Source: Hyphomonadaceae bacterium (GTDB lineage: Bacteria > Pseudomonadota > Alphaproteobacteria > Caulobacterales > Aquidulcibacteraceae). Taken from it: a DNA stretch of 64,000 nucleotides. The notes beneath the pieces were generated by a model. The model worked only from the letters and a program-made list of their open reading frames with translations. It was not told the DNA's origin and did not search any database. How positions within the stretch are numbered: position 1 is the first letter of the stretch; each line of letters opens with the position of its first letter. The stretch covers positions 153,959 through 217,958 of the forward strand of contig JAYRYJ010000003.1 in NCBI GenBank assembly GCA_041917055.1. Direction: 5' to 3'. A program made the position numbers and the translations under genes. Of the stretch, positions 30,452 to 35,360 are shown piece after piece.

Positions 30452-30610
30452 ATCATTTACCTAAATTATTTGCATAGCTCGTCTTTCTATCTTGCTAATG
30501 CATCGCATCCGCGGCCTTTCTCCTCTGCCCCCCACCTAATTCCCCGTTTGTCAAAACCCTAAATTGTGTTAGCTTTTGATATGGGTTGTTTGGCTTTTGA
30601 GTTTGGGGGT
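30452..30610 (+). repeat. Cassette leader element E3 ('empty' copy, not followed by an RHS core)
   Basis: Carries the left arm, a degenerate palindrome (AATGCATCGCATC) and the right arm, then the alternative junction TTTGTGACGGGGCG shared with E6. Confidence 0.7.
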
Positions 30611-30748
30611 TTTGTGACGGGGCGTGAAGCGAATTGTATCGTTTTGACAAGAAAAACGGTTTTAATTCACATCATGTCCCCATTTTGGGGCATTCGCAAA
30701 TGTCAGCGCAAATGGGAAATTTAATCTTCCAAAATTGTATGATGCAGG

Positions 30749-31048
30749 ATGCAAATGAAGAAATACAACGCACTATTTTGGGTAATCTATCTTGTTTTAC
30801 GAATATTGCCAATTTACGGAATAATAATGGGGATATTCTTTCAGGAGCTTTTGTCTTTCTGGACAGTGTTCTTTCCAATCATTTTCATTGGAGCACCAGC
30901 AGTATTTTATGTTATGAGCCTTAAATGTAATAATTGTGGCAAGCATATTTATACAACCGATCACATTAATAATGTTAAGACAGGATTTCGCAAATTTCCG
31001 CCCGGAGTATACGCCGATTGTCCAGAGTGTCATGCACCGATTGAATAG
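30749..31048 (+). CDS. Small membrane protein with C-terminal CxxC…CxxC zinc ribbon
   Basis: TM helices (VIYLVLRILPIYGIIMGIFF…) and CNNCGKH…CPECHAP. Located after the empty element E3. Possible orphan immunity protein. Confidence 0.3.
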   Translation: MQMKKYNALFWVIYLVLRILPIYGIIMGIFFQELLSFWTVFFPIIFIGAPAVFYVMSLKCNNCGKHIYTTDHINNVKTGFRKFPPGVYADCPECHAPIE

Positions 31049-31093
31049 TTCGGTTCTGCCGCAGTTGCAAACGTTGCAATCTAGGAGTTCAAA

Positions 31094-31321
31094 GTGAACC
31101 AATGTATCGTTACGCCACAAGGATGGCTTTCGCTTGGATTTATTATCCTTATTAATTTCGTTGCATATTTTGTCGCATTCCACCCAGAAAAAATGAGTTT
31201 TTTGAAACAATTCCCGCATGAGCATCAGAAGCTACTTGGCCGTAGTTATTTCGTTGGCTGCACAATTTTAGACGCACTGTTAATATTCACGACTGTCACA
31301 GATAAATATCCATTCAATTAA
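31094..31321 (+). CDS. Small two-TM membrane protein
   Basis: 75 aa, hydrophobic (LSLGFIILINFVAYFVAF…). Confidence 0.25.
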   Translation: MNQCIVTPQGWLSLGFIILINFVAYFVAFHPEKMSFLKQFPHEHQKLLGRSYFVGCTILDALLIFTTVTDKYPFN

Positions 31322-31404
31322 TAAGATCATCGAAAATGGGGAAACACCATTTCGTAAATGGGGACATGATATGTATTGACTTTCACTGTATTCGAGGTGC
31401 GCAG

Positions 31405-31478
31405 TTTCTCCTCCCCCGCCCAATTCCACACTTGCCATTACCCTAAATTGTGTTAGCTTTTGATATGGGTTGTTTGGC
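31405..31478 (+). repeat. Cassette leader element E4 (partial, right arm only)
   Basis: CCCAATTCCACACTTGCCATTACCCTAAATTGTGTTAGCTTTTGATATGGGTTGTTTGGC. Diverges after TTGTTTGGC into RHS-coding sequence. Confidence 0.7.
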
Positions 31479-31490
31479 GTGGGAAATTGA

Positions 31491-32834: not shown

Positions 32835-33406
32835 AAATTCTTTCGTTTGCCGGCTTAGTTTTCAGTCTAGCATTGCTCAGCTGCTCAGAGAAAAACTCCA
32901 AAACCCAAGTATCATCACAAGATACTCGATCAAATCCTATAAACTCGAACGAACGCCAAGCTGTTTTATACAATTGGAATCCTGAGGAATGCGGAAAAAC
33001 TGCAATAGTTAAGTTGTTAGAACGGGACTTAGTGAAACTAACAGAAACTGAATTCAATCAGATTAGTTCACAAGCAATCAACTGCGCAACGACCAATTTT
33101 TCGAGTAAGGAATATTATGAAATAAGCACAATAATACACACTGCTTTGCTCGAACGTGGACAGAAACGAGCTGCAATAGGCATCGCAACAGATTTATATT
33201 GCGGAAGCGAAATTCCAGGGCGAAATAAAGATCGTATTGAGGCCGTTAGAAAGATGGAGTCTTTTGTTATTGCCTTTCCAAATGACGAACACGCCAAGCG
33301 ATTACTTGAAAAAATGCGAAAAGACCTAATTCGACAAAAAGACAAACGAAACTGCATCAAGAACGATTGTTCGCAATTCCCTGAAGATAGAATTTGTTTT
33401 AAATAA
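32822..33406 (+). CDS. Putative lipoprotein immunity protein for module 4
   Basis: Lipobox signal MPKVKILSFAGLVFSLALLSC. Start overlaps the toxin stop by 13 nt. Confidence 0.45.
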   Translation: MPKVKILSFAGLVFSLALLSCSEKNSKTQVSSQDTRSNPINSNERQAVLYNWNPEECGKTAIVKLLERDLVKLTETEFNQISSQAINCATTNFSSKEYYEISTIIHTALLERGQKRAAIGIATDLYCGSEIPGRNKDRIEAVRKMESFVIAFPNDEHAKRLLEKMRKDLIRQKDKRNCIKNDCSQFPEDRICFK

Positions 33407-33458
33407 CGATTATATTTCCGTATTTCGGTGGCAGATTTCGGTTTCGGTGACAGGTTAG

Positions 33459-33612
33459 CAATTACCTAAACTATTTGTGTGGATCACTTTCCAATGCTGC
33501 GAATGCGTCGCAGTCGCATTCATAGCTCTCCCTTTGTCACTAATTCCCCGCTTGTCATTACCCTAAATTGTGTTACCTTTAGATATGGGTTGTTTGGCTT
33601 TTGAGTTTTGGG
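33459..33612 (+). repeat. Cassette leader element E5
   Basis: Full element with an extended palindrome GAATGCGTCGCAGTCGCATTC and right arm …CCCTAAATTGTGTTACCTTTAGATATGGGTTGTTTGGCTTTTGAG. Confidence 0.8.
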
Positions 33613-34673
33613 GATTTTTGCCGATTGCGGCTAATGATAACTCATCGGGCACAGTCCTAAGAAAATACGTCCATTCAACCCGCGATGATGACCCACAGGT
33701 TTGGCTTGAGGGGGTTGGGAATTCGGATATTCGGTATGTTTATGCCAATTATCAAGGCAGCGTGGTAGCCACGACAAACGCCGCCGGAAGCACAGTCCAA
33801 CTATACAAATACGACCCCTACGGCATTCCAAAAGATGCAAGCAATAACGATTCATGGCAAGGCTTCCGCTTCCGCTACACCGGCCAACAAATAATCCCCG
33901 AAGCCAAACTATACTACTACAAAGCCAGAGTTTATGACCCAAACCTAGGCATCTTCCTACAAACCGACCCGATTGGAACCGAATCAGATATCAATCTATA
34001 TGGATATGTAAAAGGCGATCCTGTAAACAAGTTTGATCCTTATGGCATGGAGGAAAAAGCCAATCCTCTCGAATCAGTTTTCAGCAACAATATGCCAAAT
34101 TGGCGCTCTTTATTTTCCAAACCAATATCCATCAACACACCGCCAGCAATTGCGCAGACAGTAAAAGATCGGACCTTTATGGTGAATTTGCAATATTCCG
34201 GTGTCGCCGGTGCCGGAGGGGCATTTGCTGGTGGAAGGTATCATTACTTAAATCAGAGTGGCACAATTTCTGAAGCTGGGTGGTATTACTCGTGGTCTGC
34301 GCGAATTGGTGTAGAATTAGGTGCAGGCAGTGGTGTCGCAACATTTAAAGGTCGCCCACAAACTGGTACAGGGGCAGATGTTTCAGTTTCAGTATTAATC
34401 TTTGCGGTTCAGATACCCGTTGGCAACAATTCAGGAAACACTTGGTCGGTCAATCTAAATGCAGGTCTAAATGCTGGGGCGAGTTTCGGAGGAGGTCCAA
34501 CGGTTTTTATCCCTGACGGAGCGAAAGGCGCTGTCGGCGCGCAAATTGGTGATTGGAAAGTTACTAAATTTGACGCGAAATCAGGCGCAATATCATTTGA
34601 AAGCTCAGTAACAGGAAGTCGCCTCCCACAAAGGATAAATTGTAAACAAACGTCGAGCGGAATATCATGCTAA
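33570..34673 (+). CDS. RHS/YD-repeat orphan toxin module 5 (RHS core 3' fragment plus Gly/Ser-rich C-terminal domain)
   Basis: Core nearly identical to modules 1 and 2, ending …LYGYVKGDPVNKFDPYG. It is followed by a 220-aa Gly-rich domain ending in Cys residues. Confidence 0.65.
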   Translation: MLPLDMGCLAFEFWGFLPIAANDNSSGTVLRKYVHSTRDDDPQVWLEGVGNSDIRYVYANYQGSVVATTNAAGSTVQLYKYDPYGIPKDASNNDSWQGFRFRYTGQQIIPEAKLYYYKARVYDPNLGIFLQTDPIGTESDINLYGYVKGDPVNKFDPYGMEEKANPLESVFSNNMPNWRSLFSKPISINTPPAIAQTVKDRTFMVNLQYSGVAGAGGAFAGGRYHYLNQSGTISEAGWYYSWSARIGVELGAGSGVATFKGRPQTGTGADVSVSVLIFAVQIPVGNNSGNTWSVNLNAGLNAGASFGGGPTVFIPDGAKGAVGAQIGDWKVTKFDAKSGAISFESSVTGSRLPQRINCKQTSSGISC

Positions 34674-34987
34674 AATCAAGAATTCAATACGCAATTTTCG
34701 TAGTCACAGGATGGGTCTTGATGCCGTTGGCTTTTGTATTAATCTTTTATGATTGCAAATTGTGTGAAGTTTTCTTACTTATTGTAATACCAATACTCAT
34801 TTTTTGGCCTCGATGTACGAATTGCGGACTTCCTTATTCTAGCGGCAAGCTAATAAGTAATTCAAAATTTGATATTCCACTTTTTCAGTATAGTAGGCGC
34901 TATTTTCCAGGCTCATGTGCGCGCTGTCACCAAGACCACTGGAATCCTTATGGTGAACCTAACACAGATTGGGTAAATTACGACTAA
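34667..34987 (+). CDS. Putative immunity protein for module 5 (membrane protein, Cys-rich)
   Basis: TM helices (AIFVVTGWVLMPLAFVLIFY…) plus CTNCGL…CARCHQDH. 7-nt overlap with the toxin stop. Confidence 0.35.
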   Translation: MLKSRIQYAIFVVTGWVLMPLAFVLIFYDCKLCEVFLLIVIPILIFWPRCTNCGLPYSSGKLISNSKFDIPLFQYSRRYFPGSCARCHQDHWNPYGEPNTDWVNYD

Positions 34988-35065
34988 TTTCGACACGTTA
35001 GAGGAATATTTCGATGACATTGCGTTATTGACATAATGTGGAGACATAATCTGTATTACATTTGG

Positions 35066-35230
35066 GCAGCAGGGTATCAATTACCTAAATTATTTGCGTG
35101 GCTCATTTTTCCAACCTTGCTAATGCGTCGCATTTGCGGCATTCCTTCTCTGCCCCCCACCCAATTCCCCACTTGCCATTACCCTAAATTGTGTTAGCTT
35201 TTGATATGGGTTGTTTGGCTTTTGAGTTTG
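35066..35230 (+). repeat. Cassette leader element E6 (terminal 'empty' copy)
   Basis: Full element with the palindrome. Ends in …GAGTTTGGGGGGTTTTTATGACGGGGACAATG, the same TGACGGGG junction as E3. Confidence 0.7.
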
Positions 35231-35360
35231 GGGGGTTTTTATGACGGGGACAATGCTAGAACATGATTCGAATTGTTTCGATTCGTCTACCAAAACAGGC
35301 CTAAACTCATATCTTGCCCTCGTTTTCCGTTTATGACGATGGCTAGGATTTCTATTATTC

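What the first reader, a model, noticed from the sequence alone, without database searches (positions are those of the whole stretch)
30452..35260. Two 'empty' leader elements (E3, E6) share a different right-hand junction (TGACGGGG)
E1, E2 and E5 continue …TTTGAG(A/T)TTGGGG(A/G)(T/G)TTTTTGCC(G/A)TTGCG… into the RHS core. E3 (30452-30610) and E6 (35066-35230) instead continue …GAGTTTGGGGG(G)TTTT(G/TA)TGACGGGG(C/A)… followed by weakly similar GAATTGT(A/T)TCG sequence. Neither is followed by an RHS core; E3 precedes two small membrane-protein genes and E6 ends the island.

Two alternative right junctions for the same element argue that it is a discrete unit that can be joined to different partners: either an insertion/recombination site with both occupied and empty states, or a small mobile element.
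Basis: seen in the sequence. Interest (0 to 1): 0.6.

Follow-up and report, generated by a model that had tools for sequence, protein, structure and literature searches.

The report
Repeat heading orphan Rhs toxin cassettes
A 185-base non-coding repeat sits in front of every cassette of a strain-specific array of silent toxin/immunity genes. Two copies are joined to a different, non-toxin flank, so the repeat is a separate building block, but the evidence points to ordinary homologous recombination rather than a new mobile or site-specific system.

Summary
Six direct copies of a ~185-nt element (E1-E6) lie in a 10.9-kb strain-variable island between ccoN and a PCuAC gene. E1, E2 and E5 run into the 3' end of an rhs core at one identical junction. 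E4 shares the first ~25 nt of that junction. E3 and E6 instead continue into a shared 77-88-nt sequence, X. X starts with TGACGGGG, includes CGAATTGTWTCG and ends in a 24-nt motif, M'. X(E3) and X(E6) are homologous (z 7-11, p<0.001). The end of X also occurs in a related strain at the same hotspot, without E or rhs.

Best reading: E is a discrete non-rhs cassette head. E-X is its unfused form. E-core arose once and spread by duplication. Ectopic gene conversion is evident: repeated parts differ about 10 times more between strains than unique parts.

There is no recombinase, attC-type core site, target duplication or dispersed copy. E is absent from the public collections scanned. A function in expression is inferred only. 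This is a lineage-specific variant of an orphan Rhs array, of moderate to low interest.

The parts
26622..37337 (.). Strain-variable island between ccoN (24738-26402, -) and the PCuAC gene (37513-38070, -)
   Evidence: Homology to related strains L004/L005 (about 91% in the cco genes, 81-88% on the PCuAC/PheT side) stops at 26621/26582 and resumes at 37512/37338. Those strains carry other short inserts there.
26874..27245 (+). 123-aa ORF, first gene of the island (function unknown; immunity-like by position only)
27248..27434 (+). E1, cassette-head repeat
   Evidence: nhmmer 200 bits
27378..28373 (+). Orphan rhs-CT 1. The reading frame opens inside E1 (GTG 27378, ATG 27393). Frameshifted in this genome (27378-28004 plus 28149-28373).
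28367..28837 (+). Putative immunity gene 1 (156 aa); its start overlaps the toxin stop
28866..29051 (+). E2, cassette-head repeat (ACG in place of the ATG, 29011-29013)
28996..29949 (+). Orphan rhs-CT 2 (317 aa from GTG)
30025..30399 (+). Putative immunity gene 2 (124 aa)
30436..30614 (+). E3, cassette-head repeat
30615..30691 (+). X(E3): non-rhs right-hand extension. Starts TGACGGGG, contains CGAATTGTATCG, ends in motif M'.
30664..30688 (-). M' (inverted copy of M): AATTCACATCATGTCCCCATTTT
   Evidence: 20/22 complementary to 31356-31377, z 10.6
30749..31048 (+). 99-aa membrane protein with a C-terminal CxxC...CxxC motif. Weakly similar to the immunity protein of cassette 5. No relatives in 5.8 billion proteins.
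   Evidence: (E 3e-4)
31094..31321 (+). 75-aa membrane protein
31356..31380 (+). M: AAATGGGGACATGATATGTATTGAC, directly left of E4
31383..31527 (+). E4: head repeat lacking about 55 nt of its left part, with a 5-nt insertion. Shares ...GCGAATGAYAATT with E1/E2/E5, then enters a longer rhs core.
31491..32834 (+). Orphan rhs-CT 4: longer, more diverged core. Out of frame with the E4 ATG.
   Evidence: (RHS_repeat)
32693..33406 (+). Putative immunity gene 4. Probably starts near 32822 (MPKVKIL...LLSC, a lipoprotein-like signal).
33441..33626 (+). E5, cassette-head repeat
33570..34673 (+). Orphan rhs-CT 5 (367 aa from GTG, ATG at 33585)
34667..34987 (+). Putative immunity gene 5 (106-aa membrane protein with CxxC...CxxC)
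35008..35062 (+). Pre-leader: tandem ~25-nt units. The first resembles the left end of E. The second (35038-35062) is a weaker copy of M.
35060..35241 (+). E6, last head repeat of the array; closest to the consensus
35242..35329 (+). X(E6): homologue of X(E3). TGACGGGG, CGAATTGTTTCG, degenerate M' at 35305-35327.
35361..37277 (-). CPBP (Rce1-like) protease gene and AraC-family regulator gene. A conserved gene pair that sits elsewhere in the genome in relatives.

Best explanation
E is the conserved, non-coding ~185-nt head of each cassette in a strain-specific array of orphan rhs-CT/immunity cassettes, and it is not rhs sequence. In E3 and E6 it is still joined to what I take to be its own right-hand continuation, X (77-88 nt, ending in the 24-nt motif M'). 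In E4, and from it E1, E2 and E5, X was replaced once by the 3' part of an rhs core. The resulting E+core block (~570 nt) was then multiplied along the array by duplication or unequal crossing-over, while the toxin tips and immunity genes behind it were exchanged. The two junctions are therefore two inherited states, unfused and fused, not repeated joining at a recombination site. E3-X now heads an immunity-only cassette, and E6-X is the cargo-less last copy.

Shown: E is discrete. X is homologous between E3 and E6 and is not rhs. The fused junction is identical in three copies. The repeats undergo ectopic gene conversion.

Inferred: the direction of change (X ancestral), and the function. On function, E would give start-less toxin fragments and their translationally coupled immunity genes a promoter and start signal, and would serve as a homology arm for RecA-dependent gain and loss of cassettes.
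For: Six direct copies, each at the 5' end of a cassette. The E-core junction is identical in E1, E2 and E5, and shared for ~25 nt with E4. X(E3) against X(E6): z 7-11, p<0.001; against rhs cores: p 0.03-0.86. A profile built only from the two X copies finds the end of X in strain L005 at the same hotspot (E 7e-5), where no E is present. Related rhs orphans elsewhere (L001) have plain rhs sequence where E would be, and among 284 Rhs hits only the window's own protein carries the E-encoded N-terminus. Between orthologous E1 units of two strains, unique parts are 98.5-99.7% identical but E and core only 90-96%. The differences are clustered, and 42 of 43 share an allele with a paralogue, for example seven in a row at 27666-27680. 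The right 72 nt of E are 90-96% identical among the full-length copies (81-88% to the degenerate E4), against 60-75% for the left part and 66% for X. They contain TTG(C/T)CA, a 16-nt spacer, TGn-TAGCTT and ATG/GTG. Immunity starts overlap toxin stops. The ORF after E3 resembles the immunity protein of cassette 5.
Against: The direction of change is not demonstrated: X could have been captured later. The promoter-like site falls below the scan's threshold. E2 has ACG instead of ATG, there is no Shine-Dalgarno sequence, and two of four toxin frames are broken. No transcript data exist. The M'/M inverted pair flanking the two small genes (20/22) has no role in this model. E3-X and E6-X are very diverged in X but not in the core, which needs either selection or conversion confined to E. 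The rest of the genome could not be read, so copies elsewhere are not excluded.
Confidence: 0.5

Rival explanations
1. E (with X and the M/M' motifs) is the attachment site of a site-specific cassette system, like integron attC sites, the repeats of rAID-1 arrays or pdif sites. E-X would be the unoccupied site, E-rhs the occupied one, and the recombinase would be encoded elsewhere.
For: Cassette-sized spacing (0.9-2.1 kb), a single orientation, a terminal copy without cargo, and a sharp right edge of E. A 22-nt inverted pair M'/M brackets a two-gene module. M' recurs at the edge of a different insert in strain L005. The island sits in a hotspot with three haplotypes.
Against: No recombinase in the island or among the genes examined around it. 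No R''/R' attC core sites on either strand. M lacks the dif architecture and the conserved XerD arm (judged by eye against the consensus from memory). The left edge of E is fuzzy and differs between pairs of copies. About 390 nt of rhs core are co-repeated with E. The M sites do not alternate in orientation. The repeats show conversion typical of homologous exchange.
Confidence: 0.12
2. M-E-X-M' (~290-320 nt, complete only at E6) is a small non-autonomous transposable element (MITE-like). The other copies are truncated insertions.
For: E6 is preceded by an M-like motif and followed by M'. E4 keeps M, and E3 keeps X-M'. A solo X-M' end is present in L005.
Against: All six copies lie in one array, in one orientation, at the equivalent position of each cassette, with an identical junction to rhs. 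That indicates duplication, not independent insertion. No target-site duplication was found. E6's own M and M' are not significantly similar to each other, and M is not significantly similar to the left end of E. There is no copy in the other ~53 kb of the window or in the public collections scanned.
Confidence: 0.12
3. Simple decay: E3 and E6 were ordinary E-rhs cassettes, and X is a mutated remnant of the rhs core.
For: Short colinear matches to the E1-type junction (TG[AC]CG, GCGAAT, ATCG, AAGAAAA-ACG) can be picked out by eye. The best pair, E3 against E5, reaches p 0.03-0.05 uncorrected.
Against: Across six comparisons and four scoring schemes the similarity of X to rhs cores is at chance level, while X(E3) against X(E6) is far above it. 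The end of X also occurs in L005 in a context without rhs.
Confidence: 0.05

Closest known systems
Orphan rhs-CT/rhsI (and cdiA-CT/cdiI) arrays (Poole et al. 2011, PMC3150448)
   Same: Tandem fragments that keep only the 3' end of the rhs core (DPxG motif), followed by a variable toxin tip and a small immunity gene. Toxin frames decay while immunity genes stay intact. The array is strain-variable.
   Different: Orphans normally begin with core sequence and lack initiation signals. Here each one is headed by the same 185-nt non-rhs element, which supplies an in-frame GTG/ATG. The same head also occurs without rhs. No full-length rhs, vgrG or PAAR gene lies in the 64-kb window.
Internal P2 promoters that express Salmonella Rhs-CT main and orphan toxins as toxin-antitoxin-like modules (Starsta et al. 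2020, PMC7043789)
   Same: The idea that orphan toxin/immunity modules carry their own conserved transcription and translation start upstream of the variable tip.
   Different: P2 lies inside conserved rhs coding sequence and was shown experimentally. Here the candidate signal lies in a foreign non-coding element and is only inferred. There is no sequence relationship.
rAID-1 recombinase-associated immunity arrays of Bacteroidales, and integrons (Ross et al., bioRxiv 10.1101/471110)
   Same: Arrays of orphan immunity (and toxin-fragment) genes separated by repetitive intergenic sequences.
   Different: Those arrays have a XerD-like or IntI recombinase at one end, and integrons have attC sites with defined core sites. 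Neither is found here.
MITEs, and pdif modules of Acinetobacter plasmids (from memory)
   Same: Short inverted motifs bracketing small gene modules (M'/M around 30664-31377).
   Different: No target duplication, no dispersed copies, no dif-like 11-6-11 architecture, and the sites do not alternate in orientation.

Membership tests
Orphan rhs-CT/immunity array | Truncated ORFs keeping the rhs core 3' end (YD repeats, DPxG-type boundary) followed by unrelated C-terminal tips | tested here: met
   cassettes 1, 2, 4 and 5 share ...YYKARVYDPNLG.FLQTDPIG...DP.N..DP.G and then diverge. RHS_repeat hit in cassette 4. 284 Rhs homologues found.
Orphan rhs-CT/immunity array | A small ORF directly downstream of each tip (the immunity gene) | tested here: met
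   ORFs of 156, 124, ~194 and 106 aa, two of them overlapping the toxin stop. Immunity function was not tested.
Orphan rhs-CT/immunity array | Located downstream of a full-length rhs gene / T6SS-linked locus | tested here: not met
   no ORF longer than 1037 aa in the window and no rhs outside 27.3-34.7 kb. The array lies between ccoN and a PCuAC gene. The rest of the genome could not be tested.
Integron / CALIN attC array | attC sites with R'' (RYYYAAC) and R' (GTTRRRY) core sites 40-160 nt apart | tested here: not met
   no such pair in any of the six inter-cassette regions, on either strand.
Integron / rAID-1 | Tyrosine recombinase (IntI or XerD-like) at one end of the array | tested here: not met
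   the island ORFs and the annotated flanking genes include none. The neighbours are cco/fix genes, CPBP, AraC, PCuAC and PheST. The remaining large ORFs of the window were not scanned, and the rest of the genome was not available.
MITE | Terminal inverted repeats on one element, target-site duplication, dispersed copies | tested here: not met
   the left end of E and M are not significantly alike. E6's own M/M' pair is not significant. No duplication is seen at the edges. All copies lie in one array.
Xer/dif-type site (pdif modules, IMEX) | 11-bp arm, 6-8-bp spacer, 11-bp arm, with a conserved XerD arm (TTATGTTAAAT) | tested here: not met
   M copies were compared directly with the consensus (recalled from memory). 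Only ACAT-GAT-ATGT partial dyad symmetry is present, with no XerD arm (sequences).
Known structured RNA (Rfam) | Match to a covariance model; stable or covarying fold | tested here: not met
   no relevant hit. Folds have z about -1. No covariation above shuffles.
Sigma-70 promoter in the E core | -35/-10 hexamers with a mapped transcription start | tested here: inconclusive
   TTG(C/T)CA, 16 nt, TGnTAGCTT is conserved in all six copies but falls below the scan threshold. Transcription cannot be tested with these tools.

The most novel reading that the evidence does not exclude
E-X and the M/M' motifs are the sites of an undescribed recombination system acting in trans, integron- or pdif-like but with unrelated sites. 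It would move toxin-immunity and other small gene modules in and out of the ccoN-PCuAC hotspot, and E-X would be the unoccupied site.
Probability: 0.1. Interest if true: 0.65.

Novelty: new variant of a known kind. Interest (0 to 1): 0.3.

Why it matters
Orphan toxin/immunity arrays are thought to grow by homologous recombination in the conserved core and to be mostly silent. Here every cassette carries the same foreign non-coding head, which also heads an immunity-only cassette. If the head is a promoter, it would show how a bacterium keeps a library of orphan immunity genes expressed independently of any full-length toxin gene. It would also show how a portable homology arm can detach such an array from an rhs locus. 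The effect seen here is confined to one uncultivated lineage, and no new mechanism is demonstrated.

Tried and rejected
- **Public collections.** Exact and degenerate E-core patterns found nothing in GTDB species genomes, JGI metagenomes or viral contigs. The M' pattern found nothing in viral contigs.
- **Rfam**: nothing relevant.
- **RNA structure of E or E+X.** Fold z-scores are between -0.5 and -2.2, and there is no covariation. Not supported.
- **X as decayed rhs.** Rejected.
- **M as the inverted left end of E** (that is, E+X as an element bounded by terminal inverted repeats). Not significant.
- **X as the 3' flank of the CPBP gene.** Rejected: relatives with the AraC-CPBP pair lack X and M.
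- **Inverted copy of E at the left island edge (26614-26631).** It lies mostly within conserved flank, so it is chance.
- **M-like motif at the right island edge (37303-37325).** Not significant.
- **attC core sites.** None.
- **Organism identification.** Cluster look-ups returned no names, and the assembly accessions are in no held paper.
- **Contigs from other strains.** They break inside the repeats, so cassette number could not be compared.
- **Exact-protein look-ups for the window's own genome.** These failed.
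Full report
**What is there**

The finding lies in a 10.9-kb segment (26622-37337/37511) between ccoN and a PCuAC copper-chaperone gene. Related strains recovered through the neighbouring ccoP protein are about 91% identical in the cco genes. At this site they carry either a single 102-aa ORF (L004) or an unrelated 344-aa ORF plus a HlyD-barrel fragment (L005, L007). The site is therefore a strain-variable hotspot.

The island holds these parts, in order:
- a 123-aa ORF;
- four orphan rhs C-terminal fragments, each followed by a small ORF in the immunity position;
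- two small membrane-protein ORFs;
- on the other strand, a CPBP protease gene and an AraC-family gene.

The window holds no full-length rhs gene.

**The repeat**

Six direct copies of a ~185-nt element are present:

| Copy | Coordinates | Right-hand partner |
|---|---|---|
| E1 | 27248-27434 | short rhs core |
| E2 | 28866-29051 | short rhs core |
| E3 | 30436-30621 | X |
| E4 | 31383-31527 | longer rhs core |
| E5 | 33441-33626 | short rhs core |
| E6 | 35060-35245 | X |

E4 lacks about 55 nt on the left and has a 5-nt insertion. There are no further copies in the window.

Conservation is uneven along the element:
- The left 60 nt are 60-75% identical between copies.
- The middle is 51-91% identical and holds a perfect 13-bp palindrome, AATGCGTCGCATT.
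- The right 72 nt are 90-96% identical among the full-length copies, and 81-88% to E4.

The conserved core contains TTG(C/T)CA, a 16-nt spacer, TGn-TAGCTT, and 5 nt later an ATG. A GTG lies 15 nt upstream of the ATG in the same frame. In E1, E2 and E5 this frame runs straight into the rhs core, and the public gene call for E1 (P0001) starts at that ATG. E2 has ACG instead of ATG. In E4 the frames are offset.

**The two junctions**

E1, E2 and E5 share a nucleotide-identical junction into about 390 nt of rhs core. The E+core blocks are 85-88% identical over ~575 nt. E4 shares the first ~25 nt past the element (…GCGAATGAYAATT, encoding AANDN). It then continues into a part of the core lying about 85 codons further upstream, so the short form looks like an internal deletion of an E4-like fusion.

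E3 and E6 both continue with TGACGGGG. After an indel of about 12 nt comes a colinear stretch that includes CGAATTGTWTCG and ends …CAYATCWTGYCCYCRTTTT. I call this extension X: 30615-30691 and 35242-35329.

The two X copies align at about 66% identity, with z 6.6-10.8 and none of 500-1000 shuffles scoring as high. Against the rhs core starts of E1, E2, E4 and E5 the same tests give chance-level scores: p 0.03-0.86, with the best value uncorrected for multiple tests.

**X is its own unit**

X ends in a 24-nt motif, M'.
- An inverted copy, M, lies at 31356-31380, directly left of E4. It is 20/22 complementary (z 10.6). M' and M thus bracket the two small membrane-protein ORFs.
- Weaker copies lie directly left of E6 (35038-35062) and at the end of X(E6).
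- A profile built only from the two X copies finds the last ~40 nt of X in strain L005 (1229-1269, E 7e-5). It sits at the edge of L005's different insert in the same hotspot.
- L005 has no trace of E.
- M is not significantly similar to the left end of E. It is also not the 3' flank of the CPBP gene: relatives that carry the AraC-CPBP pair elsewhere lack it.

**Is E rhs sequence, and is it found elsewhere?**

A related orphan locus from another sample (L001) has ordinary rhs repeats where E would be. Among 284 Rhs homologues, only the window's own protein carries the E-encoded N-terminus.

Degenerate E-core patterns found nothing in one genome per GTDB species, in JGI metagenomes or in IMG/VR. 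The only other copies recovered are orthologous pieces from sibling assemblies, on contigs that break inside the repeat (L003, L010).

**How the array evolves**

I compared the orthologous E1 unit in the window and in L003:

| Segment | Identity |
|---|---|
| Unique parts (upstream gene, toxin tip, immunity gene) | 98.5-99.7% |
| Left and middle of E | 89.8% |
| E core | 95.8% |
| rhs core | 92.9% |

The 43 differences in the repeated parts are clustered. For 42 of them, one allele is found in a paralogue of the window, including seven consecutive sites at 27666-27680 that match E2 and E5. This is the signature of ectopic gene conversion among the E+core repeats. It is direct evidence that homologous recombination acts on them.

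Nothing points to site-specific recombination:
- No recombinase was seen in the island or among the genes examined around it. The other large window ORFs were not scanned one by one.
- There are no attC-type core sites.
- M has no dif-like architecture.
- No target duplication is visible.
- The left edge of the repeat differs between pairs of copies. E2 and E6 share about 50 nt more, while E3 and E5 share other flank.

**What E might do**

No Rfam family matches. The predicted hairpin in the core is no more stable than in shuffled sequence and shows no covariation.

The promoter-like hexamers are conserved in all six copies but fall below the scan's threshold. There is no Shine-Dalgarno sequence before the ATG, which lies where a leaderless transcript would begin. 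This is inference only.

Immunity-gene starts overlap toxin stops (28367/28373 and 34667/34673), so translating the orphan frame may matter for immunity expression. The 99-aa protein behind E3 has the same build as the immunity protein of cassette 5: two hydrophobic segments followed by CxxC…CxxC. The two are weakly similar (E 3e-4). It has no other relatives among 5.8 billion proteins. E3 therefore heads an immunity-only cassette rather than being 'empty'.

**Conclusion**

Its two right-hand junctions are each explained by a single ancestral state that was then copied:
- E-X is the unfused form, kept at the end of the array and in front of the immunity-only cassette.
- E-core is a one-time fusion, multiplied with the cassettes and kept similar by gene conversion.

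That X is the older partner is inferred from three points. X exists without E in another strain. E6 is the most complete and most consensus-like copy. The fused junction has a single origin.

A site-specific or transposable mechanism is not excluded, because the M'/M pair remains unexplained and the rest of the genome could not be read. It has no positive support.

Compared with described orphan Rhs arrays (PMC3150448), Salmonella internal rhs promoters (PMC7043789) and rAID-1 arrays (10.1101/471110), this is a lineage-specific variant rather than a new kind of system.

Noticed in passing
window 26622-37511; L004 6819-7209; L005 1014-3045: The ccoN/PCuAC intergenic site is a hotspot with at least three haplotypes among strains whose cco genes are ~91% identical: this 10.9-kb island, a lone 102-aa ORF, or a 344-aa ORF plus a HlyD-barrel fragment.
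   Followed up: partly
window 30664-30688 and 31356-31380: A 22-nt inverted repeat (20/22) brackets a 714-bp segment holding the two small membrane-protein ORFs. No flanking duplication and no recombinase nearby; its role is unexplained.
   Followed up: partly
window 35361-37277; L012 9179-10978; L013 9156-10966: The AraC-family regulator and the CPBP (Rce1-like) protease form a conserved gene pair. In relatives (77-80% aa identity) it sits in quite different genomic neighbourhoods.
   Followed up: partly
window 27378-28373; L003 216-1196: The cassette-1 toxin frame is frameshifted in the window and contiguous in the sibling MAG. The MAG's DNA has an in-frame TAG (L003 295-297) where the database protein P0122 shows Q.
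   Followed up: no
window 27309-27321, 28929-28941, 35122-35134 (33502-33514 imperfect): A perfect 13-bp palindrome, AATGCGTCGCATT, inside the repeat, about 70-85 nt upstream of the conserved core. It looks like an operator for a dimeric DNA-binding protein.
   Followed up: no
window 26568-26582: The palindrome TGGACATTTTGTCCA upstream of ccoN is also present in strains L004 and L007, so it is probably a regulator binding site of the cbb3 oxidase promoter.
   Followed up: no
window 35008-35085: Three tandem ~25-nt units lie directly left of E6. The first resembles the left end of the repeat, and the second resembles motif M.
   Followed up: partly
window 29011-29013: E2 carries ACG where the other five copies have the ATG that gene callers use as the orphan start. 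Cassette 2 nevertheless has an intact 317-aa frame from the upstream GTG.
   Followed up: no
L001 1-3000: A related sample carries a conventional rhs tip / immunity / orphan / decayed-orphan series without any head repeat. It is useful as a contrast locus.
   Followed up: partly
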